From contig CAVFKJ010000046.1 of assembly GCA_963623125.1 (NCBI GenBank), forward strand, positions 41,253 through 103,304: 62,052 nt of DNA. The letters are read 5' to 3'. The DNA is from Clostridium sp. CAG:217. Lineage in GTDB: Bacteria; Bacillota_I; Bacilli_A; Erysipelotrichales; Erysipelotrichaceae. This document shows positions 2 to 61,863 of the stretch, in pieces. The translations under genes and the position numbers were made by a program. Position 1 is the first letter of the stretch; each line of letters begins with the position of its first letter. The notes under the pieces were generated by a model. It did not search any database. It was not told the DNA's origin and saw only the letters and a program-made list of their open reading frames with translations.

Positions 2-292
2 AAGGATCCTAACTTTGGTAATCTTTGGACTAATATTCCTTTAGATACTTTTAAAGAAATGGGCTTTAAGTTTGGTGATATTGTTAAGACTTCTATTTAT
101 CATAATGATAAGCTTTTATATAAGTGGGATCTTCCTTATTATGATTCATTTGGTAAGGCTAAAGATCATACGGTTATGATTTACAATAATGAGCTTAATA
201 AGATGGCTTTAGCTATGGTTGTTGATAACTTGTGTAAGACTTATGATTTAACTTTTGGTAAAGATTATAGAGTAGTATTTGAACATGAATAA
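2..292 (+). CDS. 3' end of an upstream DUF62 (S-adenosyl-L-methionine hydroxide adenosyltransferase family) paralog; 5' end lies outside the window
   Basis: Frame 2 is open from the window edge (KDPNFGNLWTNIPLDTFKEMGFKFGD...). This tail parallels the C-terminal ~90 aa of the next ORF (FGSLWTSIPYEDFKKCGFKFGD...). Confidence 0.6.
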   Translation, partial: KDPNFGNLWTNIPLDTFKEMGFKFGDIVKTSIYHNDKLLYKWDLPYYDSFGKAKDHTVMIYNNELNKMALAMVVDNLCKTYDLTFGKDYRVVFEHE

Positions 293-13904: not shown

Positions 13905-13986
13905 AAGATGTAAATAGATGTAAAAGAAAATAAAACATGTAAAGAGATGTAAAAAGATGTAAAAGAAATTAAAAGATGTAAAAGAA
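13905..13986. repeat. Phased array of six (G/C)ATGTAAA(A/G) words
   Basis: ATGTAAA starts at 13908, 13918, 13937, 13947, 13957 and 13976, giving spacings of 10/19/10/10/19 bp. Confidence 0.8.
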
Positions 13987-30344: not shown

Positions 30345-30389
30345 GTAGACTTTGAAAGTAGACTTTAAGTAGACTTTATAGTATACTTT
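30345..30389 (+). repeat. Four GTAGACTTT-type iterons immediately upstream of the AlbA_2 gene
   Basis: gtagacttt at 30345, 30358 and 30369, and gtatacttt at 30381, giving spacings of 13/11/12 bp. The first 34 bp are repeated exactly at 31714-31747. Confidence 0.85.
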
Positions 30390-30412
30390 AAGTGGTTAAA
30401 GTAGGTGATAAT

Positions 30413-31717
30413 ATGTTAAATCTTGGAATGGAAAATGAAAATCAAGAGTTTAAAGAGGGTTTGGGTCAACTAGATAAGGGGCTTAAGTCGATTACGGCAA
30501 TGCTTAATAAAAGTGGCAGTGGAACAGTTTATTTTGGTGTAAATGATGATGGTGATATCTGTGGACTTTCTATTGGCAAGAATACTTTGATGGACATTCG
30601 CAATAGAATCAGAGATAAGATTGAGCCTAGAATTTATGCTGATATCGAAGAATTAAGAGATGATGATAAAAAGTATATAAAGGTTTCGGCAACCGGTTTT
30701 GATGCACCTTATTCTTTTGATGGAAGATATTATATTCGCAATGTTTCTTCGGATGAACAAGCCTCTAACGATGTTTTAAGAAAAATGTTGGCTTCTTCTG
30801 ATAGCGATATTATTCGTCAAAAAACTTCGCCTAAGCAGAATTTATCCTTTAAAGCCTTTTTTGCGATATTAGCTGGAAGTGGCATCCATCCTAAGGCTAA
30901 TAAGGAATTTTATAATAACTATGGTTTGTTAAATAGAGATGGTAAATTTAATATAAATGCCTATTTATTGTCTGATGAAAATGAGGTTTCCATTAAAGTT
31001 GTTACTTTTGATGGTTTAGATAAAACCGTCATGTCAAGAAGAACGGAATATGGTGGAAAGTGTTTATTGGTTTCAATATCGGAGGTTATGAGTTATTTTG
31101 AATCAATTAATACAACTAATGTTGATTTAAATAGCAGTTTAAGAAAAGAAGAATATTTATTTGATTTTTCTAGTTTTAGAGAAGCGTGGATTAATGCTTG
31201 TTTACATAATGATTGGAATAACGCTATTCCGCCTTCAATACACTTATTTGATGATCGTATTGAGATTATTTCTTATGGTGGTTTACCATTTGCTTTGTCA
31301 AAAGAAGGTTTCTTTAATGGCACAAGTATGCCTATTAATAAAAGCCTTCTTACTATCTTTATTGCAGCGCATTTCGCTGAACAAAGTGGACATGGTGTTC
31401 CAACGATTGTTGAAAAATATGGTCGTGATGTCTTTTCTTTTGATGATGGAATGTTAAAGGTTACTTTGCCTTTAGCCTTTGATAGACCGGAAATTATTGC
31501 GCGTAAGAAGCTTGCTTTGCAAAAAAAGGGACTAAATGAAAATCAAAAGAAAGTTTATGATGCCTTAGCAAATGATGGCAAGGCTTCACTTGAGGATGTT
31601 TCAAAAATCGTTGGTCTAAGTCTTGGTGGTGTCAAAAAGATTTGTGCTAAACTTCAAGATTATCATTTACTTGAAAGAAAAGGCTCTAAGCGTGATGGCA
31701 TTTGGATTGTAATGTAG
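30413..31717 (+). CDS. AlbA_2 (Schlafen-like) + HATPase_c_4 + C-terminal winged-helix protein
   Basis: ENQEFKEG...GTVYFGVNDDGDICG matches AlbA_2. FREAWINACLHNDW...DDRIEIISYGGLP matches HATPase_c_4. NQKKVYDALANDGKASLEDVSKIVGLSLGGVKKICAKL is wHTH-like. The ATG at 30413 follows AGGTGA; the track start is an upstream GTG. Confidence 0.7.
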   Translation: MLNLGMENENQEFKEGLGQLDKGLKSITAMLNKSGSGTVYFGVNDDGDICGLSIGKNTLMDIRNRIRDKIEPRIYADIEELRDDDKKYIKVSATGFDAPYSFDGRYYIRNVSSDEQASNDVLRKMLASSDSDIIRQKTSPKQNLSFKAFFAILAGSGIHPKANKEFYNNYGLLNRDGKFNINAYLLSDENEVSIKVVTFDGLDKTVMSRRTEYGGKCLLVSISEVMSYFESINTTNVDLNSSLRKEEYLFDFSSFREAWINACLHNDWNNAIPPSIHLFDDRIEIISYGGLPFALSKEGFFNGTSMPINKSLLTIFIAAHFAEQSGHGVPTIVEKYGRDVFSFDDGMLKVTLPLAFDRPEIIARKKLALQKKGLNENQKKVYDALANDGKASLEDVSKIVGLSLGGVKKICAKLQDYHLLERKGSKRDGIWIVM

Positions 31718-31747
31718 ACTTTGAAAGTAGACTTTAAGTAGACTTTA
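31714..31747 (+). repeat. Exact 34-bp copy of the upstream iteron block, overlapping the stop codon
   Basis: gtagactttgaaagtagactttaagtagacttta is identical to 30345-30378. Confidence 0.9.
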
Positions 31748-31750
31748 AAA

Positions 31751-58704: not shown

Positions 58705-60144
58705 TTATTGCAAGATGATGGAACTGTGATTGGTCTTATATACCTTTGTTTTACCATCTGATTTTATTAATAAATCTTGTTTTACTAAGTTATTAATAAT
58801 GGTATTTCTTAAGTAACTTGAATCACTAATATTTAAATTAGCAGCAATCTCTTTGATGCTTCTTGCCTGCGCGTAACAATACGATAGAATTTGTTTATCA
58901 TATTTGCTTTCCTTTTCGATTGGAGGATAAATTAAATTTGTTGTTTCATTACTTTCTATGCCTTCAAGATAGGTTAAATCGGGAAGGACTAGAGTAAAAT
59001 GGTCGCTTGTTGAAAAGATGTAAGGTCTATGTTTAAGATCACAATCTTTATAGTCTTCAAGTATTTTATCAAAGTCAGTACCAGCTGCTTCCATAACGTT
59101 ACATAAAACAAGTACTCCACATATAATGTTGTTTCTTCTTTTAGAAATAATATGCGATAAGTCATATGTTTTAGCTATTGTTTCGCCATTATAAAAGCTT
59201 CCTGGTGAGGATATTTCTAGTCGATCTTTAAAAATATCGAATTGAATCTGGCTACCATCGATAAAGTAGTCCCTATGGGCAAAAGTGTTTACTACGCCCT
59301 CAAATAATGCACGTTTAGGGTAAGAGTCAATATTTATTCTATAATCATCTTTTTTGATGATAGAGTGGTTCATTCTGCTTGTAATAAAGTCCATCACATA
59401 GGAAATTGAATCAGTGATATTACCTTTATATTTATTAATACTGACAATTCTTTGACTACCTTTATTAAAGCCGGAATATAGTGAACACTGAACAAGTGTT
59501 TTATCACCATCATAATCATCTTTAAATAATAGAGCACCATTACTCAAATTATTATCATTATCATAAAAGCCTAAAGAGCTTAGAACTTTATTTGATAATT
59601 GTTTATTGTCATTGTGAAGAGAATAGAAGGCGAATAATTTTTTAAAATCATTTTGACTATATTTAATATCGCTATAAAGAGAATCATATTGTACTTTCTT
59701 ACTAGAAATGGACATATTTATTATTTCTTCATATGTGGCACCATTAGTGAAACCATCTCTTCGCATGTATATTGATGGAATGTCATTGTATTTTAGGATA
59801 ATGGGTTTAATAGCTGATTCATAAACATTTACTTTGATAATAAACAATTCTTTTCCTCTAATCTCATATCTTAAAAACTCTATGTTTATATTTGGTCTTG
59901 GCGTTAAATGCTCATTTATTTGACTATTGAAGTAATTTCTTTCTTTGTCTGCTTGCGTTTTATCAAAACCGACTAGTTTATTTGTCTTGTCTTCTACACC
60001 AATATAAAAGACGCCACCTTTATTATTAGAAAAACCTGCGATTGTTTTTAACCAAGATATTGGATCTTGTGCGTTTAATTTGCTTTTGCATTCAAAAAAT
60101 TCATTTTCAGTATAATGAGTGTTATCTATTTCTTCTAAAAACAT
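58705..60144 (-). CDS. AlbA_2 (Schlafen-like) + HATPase_c_4 + C-terminal winged-helix protein, paralog of 30413-31717
   Basis: ENEFFECKS...GGVFYIGVEDKTNKLVG matches AlbA_2. LFEGVVNTFAHRDY...KDRLEISSPGSF matches HATPase_c_4. The C-terminal SIKEIAANLNISDSSYLRNTIINNLVKQ is a wHTH. The ATG at 60144 follows a GGGAGA RBS; the track start is an upstream GTG. Confidence 0.7.
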   Translation of the reverse strand: MFLEEIDNTHYTENEFFECKSKLNAQDPISWLKTIAGFSNNKGGVFYIGVEDKTNKLVGFDKTQADKERNYFNSQINEHLTPRPNINIEFLRYEIRGKELFIIKVNVYESAIKPIILKYNDIPSIYMRRDGFTNGATYEEIINMSISSKKVQYDSLYSDIKYSQNDFKKLFAFYSLHNDNKQLSNKVLSSLGFYDNDNNLSNGALLFKDDYDGDKTLVQCSLYSGFNKGSQRIVSINKYKGNITDSISYVMDFITSRMNHSIIKKDDYRINIDSYPKRALFEGVVNTFAHRDYFIDGSQIQFDIFKDRLEISSPGSFYNGETIAKTYDLSHIISKRRNNIICGVLVLCNVMEAAGTDFDKILEDYKDCDLKHRPYIFSTSDHFTLVLPDLTYLEGIESNETTNLIYPPIEKESKYDKQILSYCYAQARSIKEIAANLNISDSSYLRNTIINNLVKQDLLIKSDGKTKVYKTNHSSIILQ

Positions 60145-60157
60145 AATATTTTCTCCC

Positions 60158-60241
60158 ACTTCAATTTTACTTCAAAGCTACTTCAATATAACTTCAATAA
60201 ATACTTCAATGCTACTTCAATGAATTATTGAAGTACTTCAA
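60158..60241 (-). repeat. Seven ACTTCAA (gene-sense TTGAAGT) iterons plus one inverted copy, directly upstream of the AlbA_2 paralog
   Basis: ACTTCAA starts at 60158, 60169, 60180, 60191, 60203, 60214 and 60235, giving spacings of 11/11/11/12/11/21 bp. Inverted repeat tacttcaat-gaatt-attgaagta at 60213-60235. Confidence 0.85.
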
Positions 60242-60282
60242 AATAGGGATGATATAATTTAAAAAATAATTTAGGAGCATTT

Positions 60283-61863
60283 ATGAAGAATATAGGAAAA
60301 GTTTTGCTTAGTGTTTTATTGTTAATTGTAATGGTAGGATGTTCATCTGATAATAAGGTTACAATGGATGATGTCGATAGTATTAAGGCTTATATAGATG
60401 AAACATTTTATGGAGCGGGTGTAAAACAAATTGAAGTGACTTATAAAAGTGGTAGTAATTTATCTTGTATTGATAAAGAAAGCTACATTATTGAAGATAG
60501 AGGCAGTTTAAATCCTGATTTTGGTAGACTTGATATTGAAAGTGTAGAAGTAAAAGATAATGTTGTTACACTAAATATTCATAGAGGTTTTGATGCGAGT
60601 GAAAATAATGCACTTATTTATACGGGCGATGATGCAGGTGTAAGAGAAAGGAACAGCTTTGGCGTACTTGTTTCTGTTGGCTGGTATAGAGATGTTGATG
60701 GAGCTATCCATTATGGTGATAATAATCCTGATAATATTGGTTATCAAGTAAGACCTAGTTTAGAATTAAGGCTTCGTCATGCTTGGGAAGATGAAAGTAA
60801 GAATGAATGTCTAGCTAATGAAGATGGCCAATATAACAATAATGGTAAATGGCTTGACAGTGTTAATAGACAGCTTGATAAGTTTAATAATTTGTATGAT
60901 TTAAAGATTGAAAGTAGTGCAAGTAATGTGGCTGATAATACAGCTGATAAGTATGTAAGAGGCTATTACTATATCCCTGAAGATTATAATCCAGATAATG
61001 GCATCATCTTTACTTTACAAGGTCAAGCTATTTCTTATTGGCGACTAGAAGATGGAACAGATAATGAAGGAACTGGCTTATTGTTTGATAGCGCTACTTC
61101 TTCTTGGATAAATACTGGGGCAATCGTGGTAAATATCCAAGATAGGTCAAGCTATGGCAAAGACTATGGAAGCTTTTGGGAAAGCTATGATTTTGTATTA
61201 GATGATGTAAATGTTATGAAATATTTCATCGATAAATATAACATTACAGGCAATATTGTCTTACAAGGCAATTCAAGAGGTACTATGGCTAGCGCTATGA
61301 TAATTAAAGCTTTAGCAGGACAAGAATATAATCCTAAGAATCAAATAAAAGATGGGACATATGAAGAAACTTTCTTATTAGATAAAGATAAGTATAACTT
61401 CAATGTGAATGCCTATATTTGTCAAAACGGTATGTTTGGCTATGAATATGATGAAGAAGACTACAAAGCGGTATGTGCTACTAATTTAAAAGTATGGGCC
61501 TTTAATGGTGAACAAGATACTGATGATTATGCTGATATTACTAAATATAAAGAAATGATGATTAATATAAATGGTGAAGAGTGGTCTAATGAAAATATTC
61601 GTTTAACGGCATATCCAAGCGAATTATTCTATCCATTTGGTGAAAGTGATCATTCAGTTACCCGTATTAATGGCTGGTTCTTTGCGGATAAGGGCTATTT
61701 AGGTCCTGATTTAGAAATTAATGATGATGGCGAAATTGTTTATTCTAATAAACTAAATGATGGTGATGCTTATTCTTTAAGGGGTAGAGGCAATGGTTCT
61801 TTAAAAAAGGATTATATATATCAAATTTATGATGAATCCTTCCATTTGTGGGCACTTAAATAA
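60283..61863 (+). CDS. Lipoprotein with a C-terminal alpha/beta-hydrolase (esterase-like) domain
   Basis: Lipobox VMVGC. Nucleophile elbow QGNSRGT (G-x-S-x-G). A late Asp and His (GESDHSV) are consistent with a catalytic triad. Confidence 0.6.
   Translation: MKNIGKVLLSVLLLIVMVGCSSDNKVTMDDVDSIKAYIDETFYGAGVKQIEVTYKSGSNLSCIDKESYIIEDRGSLNPDFGRLDIESVEVKDNVVTLNIHRGFDASENNALIYTGDDAGVRERNSFGVLVSVGWYRDVDGAIHYGDNNPDNIGYQVRPSLELRLRHAWEDESKNECLANEDGQYNNNGKWLDSVNRQLDKFNNLYDLKIESSASNVADNTADKYVRGYYYIPEDYNPDNGIIFTLQGQAISYWRLEDGTDNEGTGLLFDSATSSWINTGAIVVNIQDRSSYGKDYGSFWESYDFVLDDVNVMKYFIDKYNITGNIVLQGNSRGTMASAMIIKALAGQEYNPKNQIKDGTYEETFLLDKDKYNFNVNAYICQNGMFGYEYDEEDYKAVCATNLKVWAFNGEQDTDDYADITKYKEMMININGEEWSNENIRLTAYPSELFYPFGESDHSVTRINGWFFADKGYLGPDLEINDDGEIVYSNKLNDGDAYSLRGRGNGSLKKDYIYQIYDESFHLWALK

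What the first reader, a model, noticed from the sequence alone, without database searches (positions are those of the whole stretch)
58705..60241. Second AlbA_2/HATPase_c_4/wHTH gene with seven 11-bp-phased iterons that share the core word of the first paralog
Seen in sequence: directly upstream of the minus-strand gene, ACTTCAA (gene-sense TTGAAGT) occurs seven times at 11/11/11/12/11/21-bp spacing (60158-60241). The most distal pair forms a 9-5-9 inverted repeat (60213-60235). The proximal copy reads, in gene sense, ATTGAAGTGG followed by GAGA and the ATG. That arrangement mirrors the paralog at 30413, which reads CTTTAAGTGG followed by the RBS. Gene-sense words are TTGAAGTA(G) here and TT(G/T)A(A)AGTAG(A) at 30345-30389. 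The array fills most of the divergent region shared with the esterase-like lipoprotein gene at 60283. Inference: these are two paralogous regulators or effectors that have co-diverged with their own binding arrays. The protein probably oligomerises cooperatively along one face of the DNA across its own promoter. Whether these proteins are just autoregulated transcription factors or nucleic-acid-sensing defence modules is open.
Basis: partly seen in the sequence, partly recalled or inferred. Interest (0 to 1): 0.6.

Follow-up and report, generated by a model that had tools for sequence, protein, structure and literature searches.

The report
Self-operator repeat array of bacterial Schlafen gene
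A bacterial Schlafen-type nuclease/ATPase gene carries, inside its own promoter, a row of short DNA words that change together with the protein's DNA-reading helix across many species, which suggests that the DNA-binding tail of this abundant but uncharacterised protein class recognises its own promoter.

Summary
Seven ACTTCAA words lie at 60158-60241, spaced 11/11/11/12/11/21 bp, with an eighth inverted copy. This is the only such cluster in the 1.25-Mb assembly.

The gene (58705-60144, minus strand) encodes a Schlafen (AlbA_2) nuclease-like domain, a GHKL ATPase domain and a C-terminal winged helix. This is the commonest, functionally uncharacterised class of prokaryotic Schlafens.

- About 30 orthologues (46-82% identity, several phyla) keep (A)TTGAAGT at 11-12 bp phasing while the spacers vary.
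- Orthologues with a changed recognition helix have changed words (GTGAAGT, AAGAAGT, A/CTGAAGT).
- In this genome, 6 of 7 evaluable paralogues have their own distinct array, against 17 of 853 other genes.
- A sigma-70-like promoter sits in phase inside the array in 25 of 32 orthologues.

Best reading: a cognate operator array bound head-to-tail by the protein's own winged helix, giving tight autorepression. Binding is well supported but inferred; the sign of regulation is less certain.

The claimed shared core word with paralogue 1 reduces to AAGT. Two 2026 Schlafen papers that I read do not mention such arrays.

The parts
58705..60144 (-). Gene for a 479-aa Schlafen(AlbA_2)-GHKL(HATPase_c_4)-winged-helix protein ('Schlatpase-HTH', pSlfn-HisKinase-HTH class)
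   Evidence: Pfam hits SLFN_AlbA_2 3e-17 and HATPase_c_4 2e-16. AF2 model with a confident wHTH at residues 416-471. Foldseek matches 3LMM over the full length, SLFN5/11/13/14 and the SAMD9 tRNase for the N-domain, and ArsR/SmtB/MarR for the C-domain. The E13-x4-E18-x-K20, D52 and GHKL residues E282/N286/D292 are conserved.
60152..60157 (-). Ribosome-binding site GGGAGA, 7 nt before the ATG at 60144
   Evidence: Read from the sequence.
60158..60241 (-). Array of seven direct TTGAAGT words (gene sense) at 11/11/11/12/11/21-bp spacing plus one inverted copy; the putative cognate operator array
   Evidence: The same word and phasing occur in about 30 orthologous loci.
60228..60241 (.). Distal perfect palindrome TTGAAGTACTTCAA (inverted copy plus the seventh direct copy). 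It recurs at the distal end of the array in L035, L043 and L329, and with a 1-nt gap in L036 and L038.
60213..60235 (.). 9-5-9 inverted repeat TACTTCAAT-GAATT-ATTGAAGTA
   Evidence: also I3.
60164..60169 (-). Putative -10 hexamer TAAAAT of the Schlafen gene. Its first T is the last base of repeat 2 and its last T is the first base of repeat 1.
   Evidence: Phase analysis: the -10 starts 6 nt after a core start, as in 25 of 32 orthologues. There are no transcript data.
60187..60192 (-). Weak putative -35 (GTTATA, 3 of 6) 17 nt upstream of the -10. Orthologues have TTGACA, TTGATA or TTGACT at this place.
   Evidence: The consensus scan finds no strong promoter in this window's copy.
60250..60258 (+). 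Extended -10 (TGaTATAAT) of the divergent promoter, about 10 nt from the palindrome. The same element sits at the same place in L043 and L329 in front of a different gene.
60283..61863 (+). Divergent gene for a 526-aa lipoprotein with no Pfam or NCBIfam match. A homologue sits in the same position in the 80%-identical locus L035.
30345..30393 (+). Array of paralogue 1 (GTAGACTTT x4; conserved word AAGTAGACT), directly after the upstream terminator
30413..31717 (+). Paralogue 1 (434 aa; AlbA_2, HATPase_c_4, HTH_24/TrmB-type wHTH)
31716..31749 (+). Exact second copy of the first 34 bp of the paralogue-1 array. It overlaps the stop codon and is followed by a terminator.

Best explanation
The array is the cognate operator of the protein encoded next to it. 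The C-terminal winged helix (recognition helix S440-D-S-S-Y-L-R446) reads the 7-8-bp word (A)TTGAAGT. Copies spaced 11-12 bp apart would let protomers bind head-to-tail on roughly one face of the DNA, with the distal palindrome as a possible dimeric nucleation site. The gene's own sigma-70-type promoter is built into the array: the -35 and -10 hexamers are made from the last T of a word plus the following spacer, and the 23 bp from -35 to -10 equals 11 + 12. An occupied array should therefore exclude RNA polymerase. This would hold a potentially toxic Schlafen nuclease/GHKL ATPase at a low, buffered level (negative autoregulation). In this window it would probably also control the divergent promoter that abuts the palindrome. 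Each paralogue has an orthogonal word, so the many copies in one genome would not cross-regulate. Shown here: the repeats, their uniqueness in the genome, their conservation, the covariation with the helix, the promoter phase and the domain content. Inferred: binding, cooperativity and the sign of regulation.
For: 1. Conservation. Orthologues at 46-82% identity from Bacillota, Spirochaetota and Bacteroidota MAGs keep 3-10 copies of TTGAAGT directly upstream, and the spacers differ. Across 15 loci the spacings are 11 bp (36 times), 12 bp (15 times) or multiples of these.
2. Covariation. At least 25 loci with helix S-(D/N)-S-(S/T)-(Y/F)-x-(R/K) have TTGAAGT. L037 (SYSTYLK) has A/CTGAAGT; L041, L042 and L048 (SNSTHLK) have AAGAAGT; P0015 (SNSSHLR), chosen prospectively from the alignment, has GTGAAGT; L059 (KPSTYFR) has G/ATGAAGT. 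In the paralogue-1 lineage, LSLGGVKKI goes with AAGTAGACT at 50% identity, and LSLSSIKKG goes with TTGAACTTT.
3. Reverse test. Arrays found by DNA pattern alone in metagenomes, with variable spacers and at least 4 copies, lie 16-95 nt upstream of an orthologue in 12-14 cases against 4 orphans. All complete adjacent genes carry SDS(S/T)Y(L/F)RK.
4. Family-wide pattern. In this genome, 6 of 7 evaluable paralogues have at least 3 copies of a private 7-mer in the 120 nt upstream, against 17 of 853 other ORFs (Fisher p = 1e-9). In 13 other genomes, 13 of 38 family genes pass the same strict test and many more have 2 long repeats. Members without an HTH have none.
5. Promoter. In 25 of 32 orthologues the best sigma-70-like pair starts 6 nt after a word in both hexamers, with a 17-nt spacer. 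Arrays begin right after upstream terminators, so the promoter must lie inside them.
6. Fold. The C-terminal domain is a confident wHTH that matches ArsR/SmtB/MarR repressors at about 2 A.
7. Specificity. No second TTGAAGT array exists in the assembly.
Against: No binding, footprint, transcription-start or expression data exist. The window's own promoter is weak (-35 of 3/6), and the consensus scan finds nothing there. Most copies lie upstream of the -35, which would also suit an activator. The phase-locked promoter is partly a consequence of periodicity: permuting spacer order lowers the best promoter score only slightly (7.8 against 7.3, p = 0.065). The covariation cases are few independent lineages (4-5), and relatives are not independent. 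R446K alone (P0008) did not change the word, so the residue-to-base assignment is not resolved. Four orphan arrays show that the array can exist without an adjacent gene. The assembly is only 67% complete, so other targets may be missing.
Confidence: 0.7

Rival explanations
1. The array is an activator site. The wHTH binds head-to-tail as PhoB does on pho boxes and recruits RNA polymerase, giving positive autoregulation or a switch-like burst, perhaps with repression only at high occupancy.
For: The 7-bp word plus 4-bp spacer at 11-bp phasing matches pho-box geometry (established knowledge). In the window 4-5 of the 7 copies lie upstream of the -35, and the -35 is poor (GTTATA), as in activator-dependent promoters.
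Against: Many orthologues have near-consensus -35/-10 pairs (TTGACA, TTGATA / TATAAT) that need no activator. Words also fill the -35/-10 spacer, overlap the -10 and sit at the expected start site. The wHTH resembles ArsR/MarR-type repressors, not OmpR/PhoB (no Trans_reg_C hit).
Confidence: 0.12
2. The array is mainly a docking or sequestration platform, or a sensing platform. The Schlafen-GHKL protein is stored on it as an inactive DNA-bound oligomer or filament and is released or activated by a trigger such as phage infection or loss of DNA integrity. Regulation of transcription would be secondary.
For: The nuclease triad and ATP-binding residues are conserved. In SLFN-pAgo the same supradomain tetramerises with ATP and is held inactive in filaments (10.64898/2026.05.29.728809). 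Up to 10 sites per gene is more than simple repression needs. The gene is a stand-alone, horizontally moving, multi-paralogue module.
Against: A single array of 3-10 sites per chromosome can hold only a few molecules. The in-phase promoter points to transcriptional control. Tested HisKinase-type pSlfns gave no phage defence in E. coli (PMC13056530).
Confidence: 0.1
3. The repeats are recombination or mobility sites (cassette ends, or substrates for duplication and deletion of the gene) rather than operators.
For: Paralogue 1 is bracketed by an exact 34-bp copy of its array. The orthologue in L019 is bracketed by an 89-bp copy of terminator plus array. L045 and L046 show tandem duplication with breakpoints inside the array. 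Copy number differs between close relatives: 3+1 in L035 against 7+1 here. Orphan arrays exist.
Against: The gene studied here has no downstream copy, and most orthologues have none. Covariation with the recognition helix and the embedded promoter are not explained by this reading. No recombinase is linked. Flanking copies are better read as by-products of unequal crossing-over between arrays.
Confidence: 0.05

Closest known systems
Prokaryotic Schlafens of the HisKinase/GHKL-HTH class ('pSlfn-HisKinase-HTH', PMC13056530; 'Schlatpase' supradomain with C-terminal HTH, bioRxiv 10.64898/2026.05.29.728809); solved example 3LMM (DIP2311, Corynebacterium diphtheriae)
   Same: Same three-domain architecture, the Ex4ExK nuclease motif, an AGFSN/SAFAN-like box, the GHKL motifs, and a full-length structural match to 3LMM.
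   Different: In the passages I read or term-searched, those papers describe domain content, defence-island linkage and, for other fusions (pAgo, Ig-like, DUF262), tRNA cleavage. I found no DNA target named for the HTH, no upstream arrays and no autoregulation. The HisKinase fusions they tested showed no defence phenotype.
PhoB/OmpR-type winged-helix binding to pho boxes (7-bp direct repeats, 4-bp spacers, 11-bp period, head-to-tail)
   Same: The geometry of word, spacer and period is the same, and tandem boxes sit at the promoter (established knowledge).
   Different: A different wHTH family (no Trans_reg_C hit, no receiver domain). Here the words also cover the -10 and the start site, there are up to 10 copies, and the only clear target is the protein's own gene.
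Centromere-like iteron arrays bound by small DNA-binding proteins that also autoregulate (ParR-parC of plasmid R1: 11-bp repeats flanking the promoter; TubR-tubC: wHTH on 12-bp iterons)
   Same: Many short direct repeats at about one helical turn, cooperative coating of the DNA, the promoter embedded in the array, and autorepression (established knowledge).
   Different: No partner segregation NTPase is adjacent (the neighbours are an alcohol dehydrogenase and a lipoprotein). The locus is chromosomal and sits in many contexts. The binding domain is fused to nuclease and ATPase domains.
Tight autorepression of toxic stand-alone modules (toxin-antitoxin operators, C-proteins of restriction-modification systems)
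   Same: A self-contained, horizontally mobile module whose only specific DNA target is its own promoter, with orthogonal specificities among paralogues.
   Different: A single polypeptide carries both effector and repressor. The operator is a long direct-repeat array rather than one or two palindromes.

Membership tests
Prokaryotic Schlafen, GHKL/HisKinase-HTH class (Schlatpase-HTH) | N-terminal SLFN_AlbA_2 domain above the Pfam threshold | tested here: met
   PF04326, 63.6 bits against a cut-off of 25.3, residues 13-131. Foldseek matches SLFN5/11/12/13/14 and the SAMD9 tRNase.
Prokaryotic Schlafen, GHKL/HisKinase-HTH class (Schlatpase-HTH) | Catalytic Ex4(E/D)xK motif plus a third acidic residue | tested here: met
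   E13-NEFF-E18-C-K20 and D52, conserved in 54-55 of 55 orthologues. The motif definition comes from PMC13056530 and 10.64898/2026.05.29.728809.
Prokaryotic Schlafen, GHKL/HisKinase-HTH class (Schlatpase-HTH) | GHKL ATPase domain (PF13749) with the Mg/ATP-binding N-box and glycine boxes | tested here: met
   PF13749, 59.9 bits against a cut-off of 26. E282, N286, H290, D292, G315 and N338 are invariant, and A353-G357 are nearly invariant (90% or more). The AF2 confidence is low in the lid regions.
Prokaryotic Schlafen, GHKL/HisKinase-HTH class (Schlatpase-HTH) | C-terminal helix-turn-helix domain | tested here: met
   AF2 helices at 416-422, 430-437 and 443-455 plus a two-strand wing, pLDDT about 88-94. 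Matches HlyU, CzrA, SmtB and ZitR at about 2 A.
Prokaryotic Schlafen, GHKL/HisKinase-HTH class (Schlatpase-HTH) | tRNA nuclease activity, ATP-driven oligomerisation | not testable with these tools
   Known only for other fusions (RzAgo, RorSlfn5); biochemistry is needed.
OmpR/PhoB-type response regulators on 11-bp-phased direct repeats | Trans_reg_C winged helix and a receiver domain | tested here: not met
   Neither domain is hit in Pfam, and the fold matches the ArsR/MarR type. Only the site geometry is alike.
Plasmid or phage replication iterons with a Rep initiator | Rep-family protein, adjacent AT-rich unwinding element or DnaA boxes, location on a replicon | tested here: not met
   There is no Rep domain. 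The locus sits on a 103-kb chromosomal contig between housekeeping-type genes. Orthologues lie in many different chromosomal contexts. The genome's DnaA-box cluster is elsewhere (C28).
Type II/III partition centromeres (parC/ParR, tubC/TubR) | Adjacent actin-like or tubulin-like segregation NTPase | tested here: not met
   The neighbours are an iron-type alcohol dehydrogenase and a lipoprotein, and no such gene appears in the orthologous loci.

The most novel reading that the evidence does not exclude
The array is more than a repressor site. It is the resting platform of a one-protein immune or stress sensor. The Schlafen-GHKL-HTH protein would polymerise on its private iteron array as an inactive, ATP-dependent filament. 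Events that displace it (phage-induced DNA degradation, competing DNA, supercoiling or ATP changes) would at once de-repress its synthesis and free active tetramers that cleave tRNA. The dozen orthogonal paralogues per small genome would then form a bank of independently tuned sensors.
Probability: 0.12. Interest if true: 0.85.

Novelty: new variant of a known kind. Interest (0 to 1): 0.62.

Why it matters
Schlafen-GHKL(-HTH) proteins make up roughly half or more of prokaryotic Schlafen-domain proteins in two surveys: 60,692 of 103,533 in one and 53% in the other. Their function is unknown, and the members tested so far showed no phage defence. This analysis gives a concrete, testable answer to what the HTH tail recognises: a private repeat array inside the gene's own promoter. 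A partial helix-to-word code can also be read from natural variants.

- It argues that the HTH is a self-regulation device, not a sensor of foreign DNA.
- It explains how many paralogues can coexist without cross-talk.
- It provides ready-made orthogonal protein/operator pairs.
- It warns that tests under 'native promoters' of 100-150 bp may carry a strong autorepressor site.

The same kind of array occurs upstream of AAA ATPase_2-type ATPase genes in this genome, which hints at a wider rule for stand-alone ATPase modules.

Tried and rejected
- **Chance or low complexity:** rejected by shuffles and by uniqueness in the genome.
- **General promoter architecture of this genome:** rejected. Only 23 of 860 ORFs have at least 3 private 7-mers upstream, and these are dominated by this family, its divergent neighbours and two AAA+ ATPase genes.
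- **Known RNA element:** the Rfam scan gave only a sub-threshold hit (18 bits against a gathering score of 76).
- **Sequence match to solved structures:** none. The fold search was needed.
- **PADLOC and NCBIfam:** only weak partial hits (Aga PNTD, CasR/Csa3 HTH), so the gene cannot be assigned to a defence system.
- **DNA-pattern scans:** most raw matches were unrelated, being 6- or 12-bp coding repeats or perfect 11-mer microsatellites. Only arrays with variable spacers were counted. No viral contig among the 120 returned had an adjacent orthologue.
- **Spacer-permutation control for promoter order:** inconclusive (p = 0.065).
- **R446K as the specificity determinant:** rejected by P0008.
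- **More orthologues of paralogue 1:** I used L072 and L073 from the earlier survey instead.
Full report
**1. What is in the sequence**

- The minus-strand gene runs from 58705 to 60144. Its ATG is at 60144 and the RBS GGGAGA is at 60152-60157.
- There is also an inverted copy at 60228-60234. With the distal direct copy it forms the perfect palindrome TTGAAGTACTTCAA (60228-60241). With the sixth copy it forms the 9-5-9 inverted repeat at 60213-60235.
- Tandem Repeats Finder reports periods of 11 and 23.
- The word occurs 37 times in the window against 16.6 +/- 4.5 in shuffles. Eight copies in 84 bp is far beyond chance.
- In the whole 1.25-Mb, 104-contig, 67%-complete assembly (31.6% G+C) this is the only cluster of four or more copies.

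**2. The protein**

- Pfam finds SLFN_AlbA_2 (residues 13-131) and HATPase_c_4 (residues 297-387).
- An AlphaFold2 model built on 56 homologues (mean pLDDT 77) adds a confident C-terminal winged helix: helices at 416-422, 430-437 and 443-455, plus a wing.
- Foldseek matches the uncharacterised structural-genomics entry 3LMM over the full length. The N-domain matches mammalian Schlafen nuclease domains and the SAMD9 tRNase. The C-domain matches ArsR/SmtB/MarR-type repressors at about 2 A.
- The Schlafen nuclease motif Ex4ExK (E13, E18, K20), D52 and the GHKL residues (E282, N286, D292, the glycine boxes) are conserved in the orthologue group.
- Two 2026 papers cover this architecture. One calls it pSlfn-HisKinase-HTH; the HisKinase fusions with and without an HTH together make up 53% of prokaryotic Schlafens (PMC13056530). 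The other calls it the 'Schlatpase' supradomain with a C-terminal HTH (60,692 proteins; 10.64898/2026.05.29.728809).
- In the passages I read or term-searched, neither paper names a DNA target or upstream repeats. The HisKinase fusions tested in the first paper gave no defence.
- Full-text searches for the Pfam accessions, the older names and repeats or autoregulation turned up nothing on such arrays.

**3. A property of the family in this genome**

- The assembly holds about ten members.
- Printing 260 nt upstream of each showed a different private repeat for nearly every full-length copy:
  - TTAGACCAA (C104; the contig starts in the array)
  - GTAGACTTT (paralogue 1)
  - ATGCAACGAAA (C87)
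  - a perfect TTATCGGTGACA x4 (C75)
  - TTGAAGT (this gene)
  - TTAGTCGTGAG (C61)
  - ATTACACAATAAA palindromes (C6)
  - a weak TGTCGC set (C27)
- With a blind score (at least 3 non-overlapping copies of one non-AT-only 7-mer in the 120 nt upstream), 6 of 7 evaluable paralogues pass against 17 of 853 other ORFs of at least 150 aa (Fisher p = 1.3e-9).
- Several of the 17 are divergent neighbours of these genes, or two AAA ATPase_2-type genes.
- In a class-level sample (40 family genes from 13 other genomes), 13 of 38 pass the same strict score. Many more have two long or degenerate repeats. Copies that lack the HTH have none.

**4. Conservation in orthologues**

- Relatives at 58-62% identity in five other genomes all carry 6-9 copies of TTGAAGT at 11-12 bp directly upstream, with different spacers.
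- A scan of 185,579 species genomes found 14 loci at 46-80% identity in MAGs labelled Agathobacter, Treponema, Solobacterium, Oscillospiraceae, Paludibacteraceae, Stomatobaculum and others. The gene therefore moves between phyla. Eight of the 13 loci examined again carry at least three TTGAAGT copies; L039 is cut at its contig start and shows one.
- Across 15 loci the 82 extractable copies share an invariant TTGAAGT, usually preceded by A. The four following bases vary.
- The spacings are 11 bp (36), 12 bp (15), 21-23 bp (9) and 32-33 bp (3).
- At these protein distances neutral DNA would be randomised, so the word and its phase are under selection.

**5. Covariation with the recognition helix**

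- All loci with helix S-(D/N)-S-(S/T)-(Y/F)-x-(R/K) have TTGAAGT.
- The variants are listed below.

| Locus | Helix | Word |
|---|---|---|
| L037 | SYSTYLK | A/CTGAAGT |
| L041, L042, L048 | SNSTHLK | AAGAAGT |
| L059 | KPSTYFR | G/ATGAAGT |

- As a prospective test I picked the two alignment members with deviant helices and fetched their contigs. P0015 (SNSSHLR) has GTGAAGT. P0008 (SNSSYLK) keeps TTGAAGT.
- So positions 441 and 444 track the first two bases of the word, while R446K does not.
- In the paralogue-1 lineage, L072 (50% identity) keeps the helix LSLGGVKKI and the word AAGTAGACT. L073 (42% identity) has LSLSSIKKG and TTGAACTTT.

**6. Reverse test from DNA alone**

- The pattern TTGAAGT-N4/5-TTGAAGT-N4/5-TTGAAGT was scanned in metagenome and viral contigs.
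- Most hits were hexamer or 12-mer coding repeats, or perfect 11-mer microsatellites.
- Among arrays with variable spacers and at least 4 copies, 12-14 lie 16-95 nt upstream of an orthologue and 4 are orphans.
- Every complete adjacent gene has SDS(S/T)Y(L/F)RK.
- None of the 120 viral loci had an adjacent orthologue.

**7. Relation to the promoter**

- In several loci the array starts immediately after the upstream gene's terminator, so the promoter must lie within it.
- A simple search for the best TTGACA-N16-18-TATAAT pair in 32 orthologous upstream regions gives the same result in 25 of them. Both hexamers start 6 nt after a word start (that is, at its last T) and the spacer is 17 nt. Examples are TTGACA/TATACT, TTGATA/TATAAT and TTGACT/TAAAAT.
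- The 23 bp from -35 to -10 equals 11 + 12, which accounts for the frequent 11/12 alternation.
- One word fills the spacer. In the loci that have a further proximal copy, that word begins at the last base of the -10.
- In the window the -10 is TAAAAT (60164-60169) and the in-phase -35 is poor (GTTATA). The stricter consensus scan finds nothing there.
- Permuting spacer order lowers promoter scores only slightly (p = 0.065). I therefore claim the phase relation, not a proven promoter.

**8. The divergent side**

- The palindrome is about 10 nt from an extended -10 (TGaTATAAT, 60250-60258) that reads towards the lipoprotein gene at 60283.
- The same element, at the same distance from the same palindrome, precedes an unrelated Band_7-type gene in L043 and L329.
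- The 80%-identical locus L035 is syntenic (lipoprotein homologue, alcohol dehydrogenase) but has only 3+1 words.

**9. Interpretation**

- The most economical reading is a cognate operator array read by the protein's own winged helix, with head-to-tail occupancy of words one helical turn apart and occlusion of the embedded promoter. I give this a probability of about 0.7.
- It works like PhoB on pho boxes in geometry. It works like ParR/parC, TubR/tubC, toxin-antitoxin operators or C-protein operators in logic. It fails the membership tests of all of those.
- The intact nuclease and ATPase motifs, the stand-alone and horizontally mobile gene, and the many orthogonal paralogues argue that the protein is an effector kept under tight self-control rather than an ordinary regulator. 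That part remains open.
- Rivals, in order: activation (0.12), a sequestration or sensing platform (0.10), and recombination sites (0.05).
- The recombination reading rests on flanking array copies at paralogue 1, L019 and L045/L046. I read these as by-products of unequal crossing-over.

**10. Limits**

- All functional statements are inferred from comparative sequence analysis.
- The assembly is incomplete.
- The look-up of sequencing runs and the genome search were closed, so neither transcript mapping nor a wider orthologue set for paralogue 1 could be obtained.
- Earlier notes of this scan recorded the same TTGAAGT array with an embedded promoter in another genome (e1-2691948). That agrees with my independent results.

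Noticed in passing
window 30345-30378 and 31716-31749: Paralogue 1 is bracketed by an exact 34-bp direct repeat made of its own array words, and the downstream copy overlaps the stop codon. Similar brackets occur elsewhere: an 89-bp copy of terminator plus array flanks the orthologue in L019 (1415-1503 and 2979-3067), and L045 and L046 show tandem duplication with breakpoints in the array. This suggests that arrays act as substrates for unequal crossing-over.
   Followed up: partly
G000 C9:10465-11511 (-) with array C9:11540-11620; C47:8521-9939 (-) with array C47:10089-10140: Two AAA ATPase_2-type genes of the same genome carry 10-bp-phased arrays directly upstream (TTTTTAGAAC about 8 times; TTTTATACYT about 5 times). 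The 'private array upstream of a stand-alone ATPase gene' pattern is therefore not confined to the Schlafen family.
   Followed up: partly
window 13905-13985: An orphan array of about 8 AAGATGTAA(A) words at 10-bp spacing lies between two plus-strand genes, upstream of a membrane transporter-like ORF. No gene of either ATPase family is adjacent.
   Followed up: no
L107 (2344-2408), L136 (7371-7412), L142 (5386-5437), L168 (209-250): These metagenome contigs carry TTGAAGT arrays with variable spacers (4-6 copies, some ending in a TTGAAGTAACTTCAA-like palindrome) but have no Schlafen gene in the DNA held for each locus. Instead they sit upstream of small unrelated ORFs (a membrane protein, a TfoX-like protein). 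They may be trans targets or relics.
   Followed up: partly
window 60250-60258; L043 and L329 upstream regions: A conserved outward-facing extended -10 promoter (TGATATAAT) sits about 10 nt from the distal palindrome and drives different genes in different genomes (a lipoprotein here, a Band_7/SPFH-like gene in L043 and L329). It looks as if the module carries its own divergent promoter.
   Followed up: partly
G000 C63:12420-12526: About ten GTGAAGTAGT words at 10-12 bp spacing lie just downstream of a DDE_Tnp_1 transposase gene (C63:12676-14289) and upstream of a diacylglycerol-kinase-like gene. They may be subterminal repeats of an insertion sequence.
   Followed up: no
G000 C73:21336-21397 and C104:1-29; C87:1-50; C26 end / C83 start: Several contigs break inside repeat arrays. 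C73 ends and C104 begins in TTAGACCAA words, and C87 starts with AATGGCGATATA x4, which may be coding (NGDI repeats before a wHTH-like tail). C26 and C83 overlap end to end next to two further arrays (TTGAAAAATTG; AAATCGGAAAT x6, upstream of a translational GTPase-like ORF).
   Followed up: no
L020 and L023 downstream regions; L022 upstream: Family members often sit in tandem or in clusters, each with a different array. CGACATTT x6 follows the orthologue in L020 and AAACCACGGAGT x3 follows L023. Another member's wHTH tail ends just before the array in L022. G026 has four members within 8 kb.
   Followed up: no
G000 C28:9770-9847: A cluster of TTATCCACA DnaA boxes lies upstream of a likely dnaA gene (C28:9972-11324). 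This is the likely chromosomal origin, and it served as a positive control that the repeat scan finds true protein-binding arrays.
   Followed up: no
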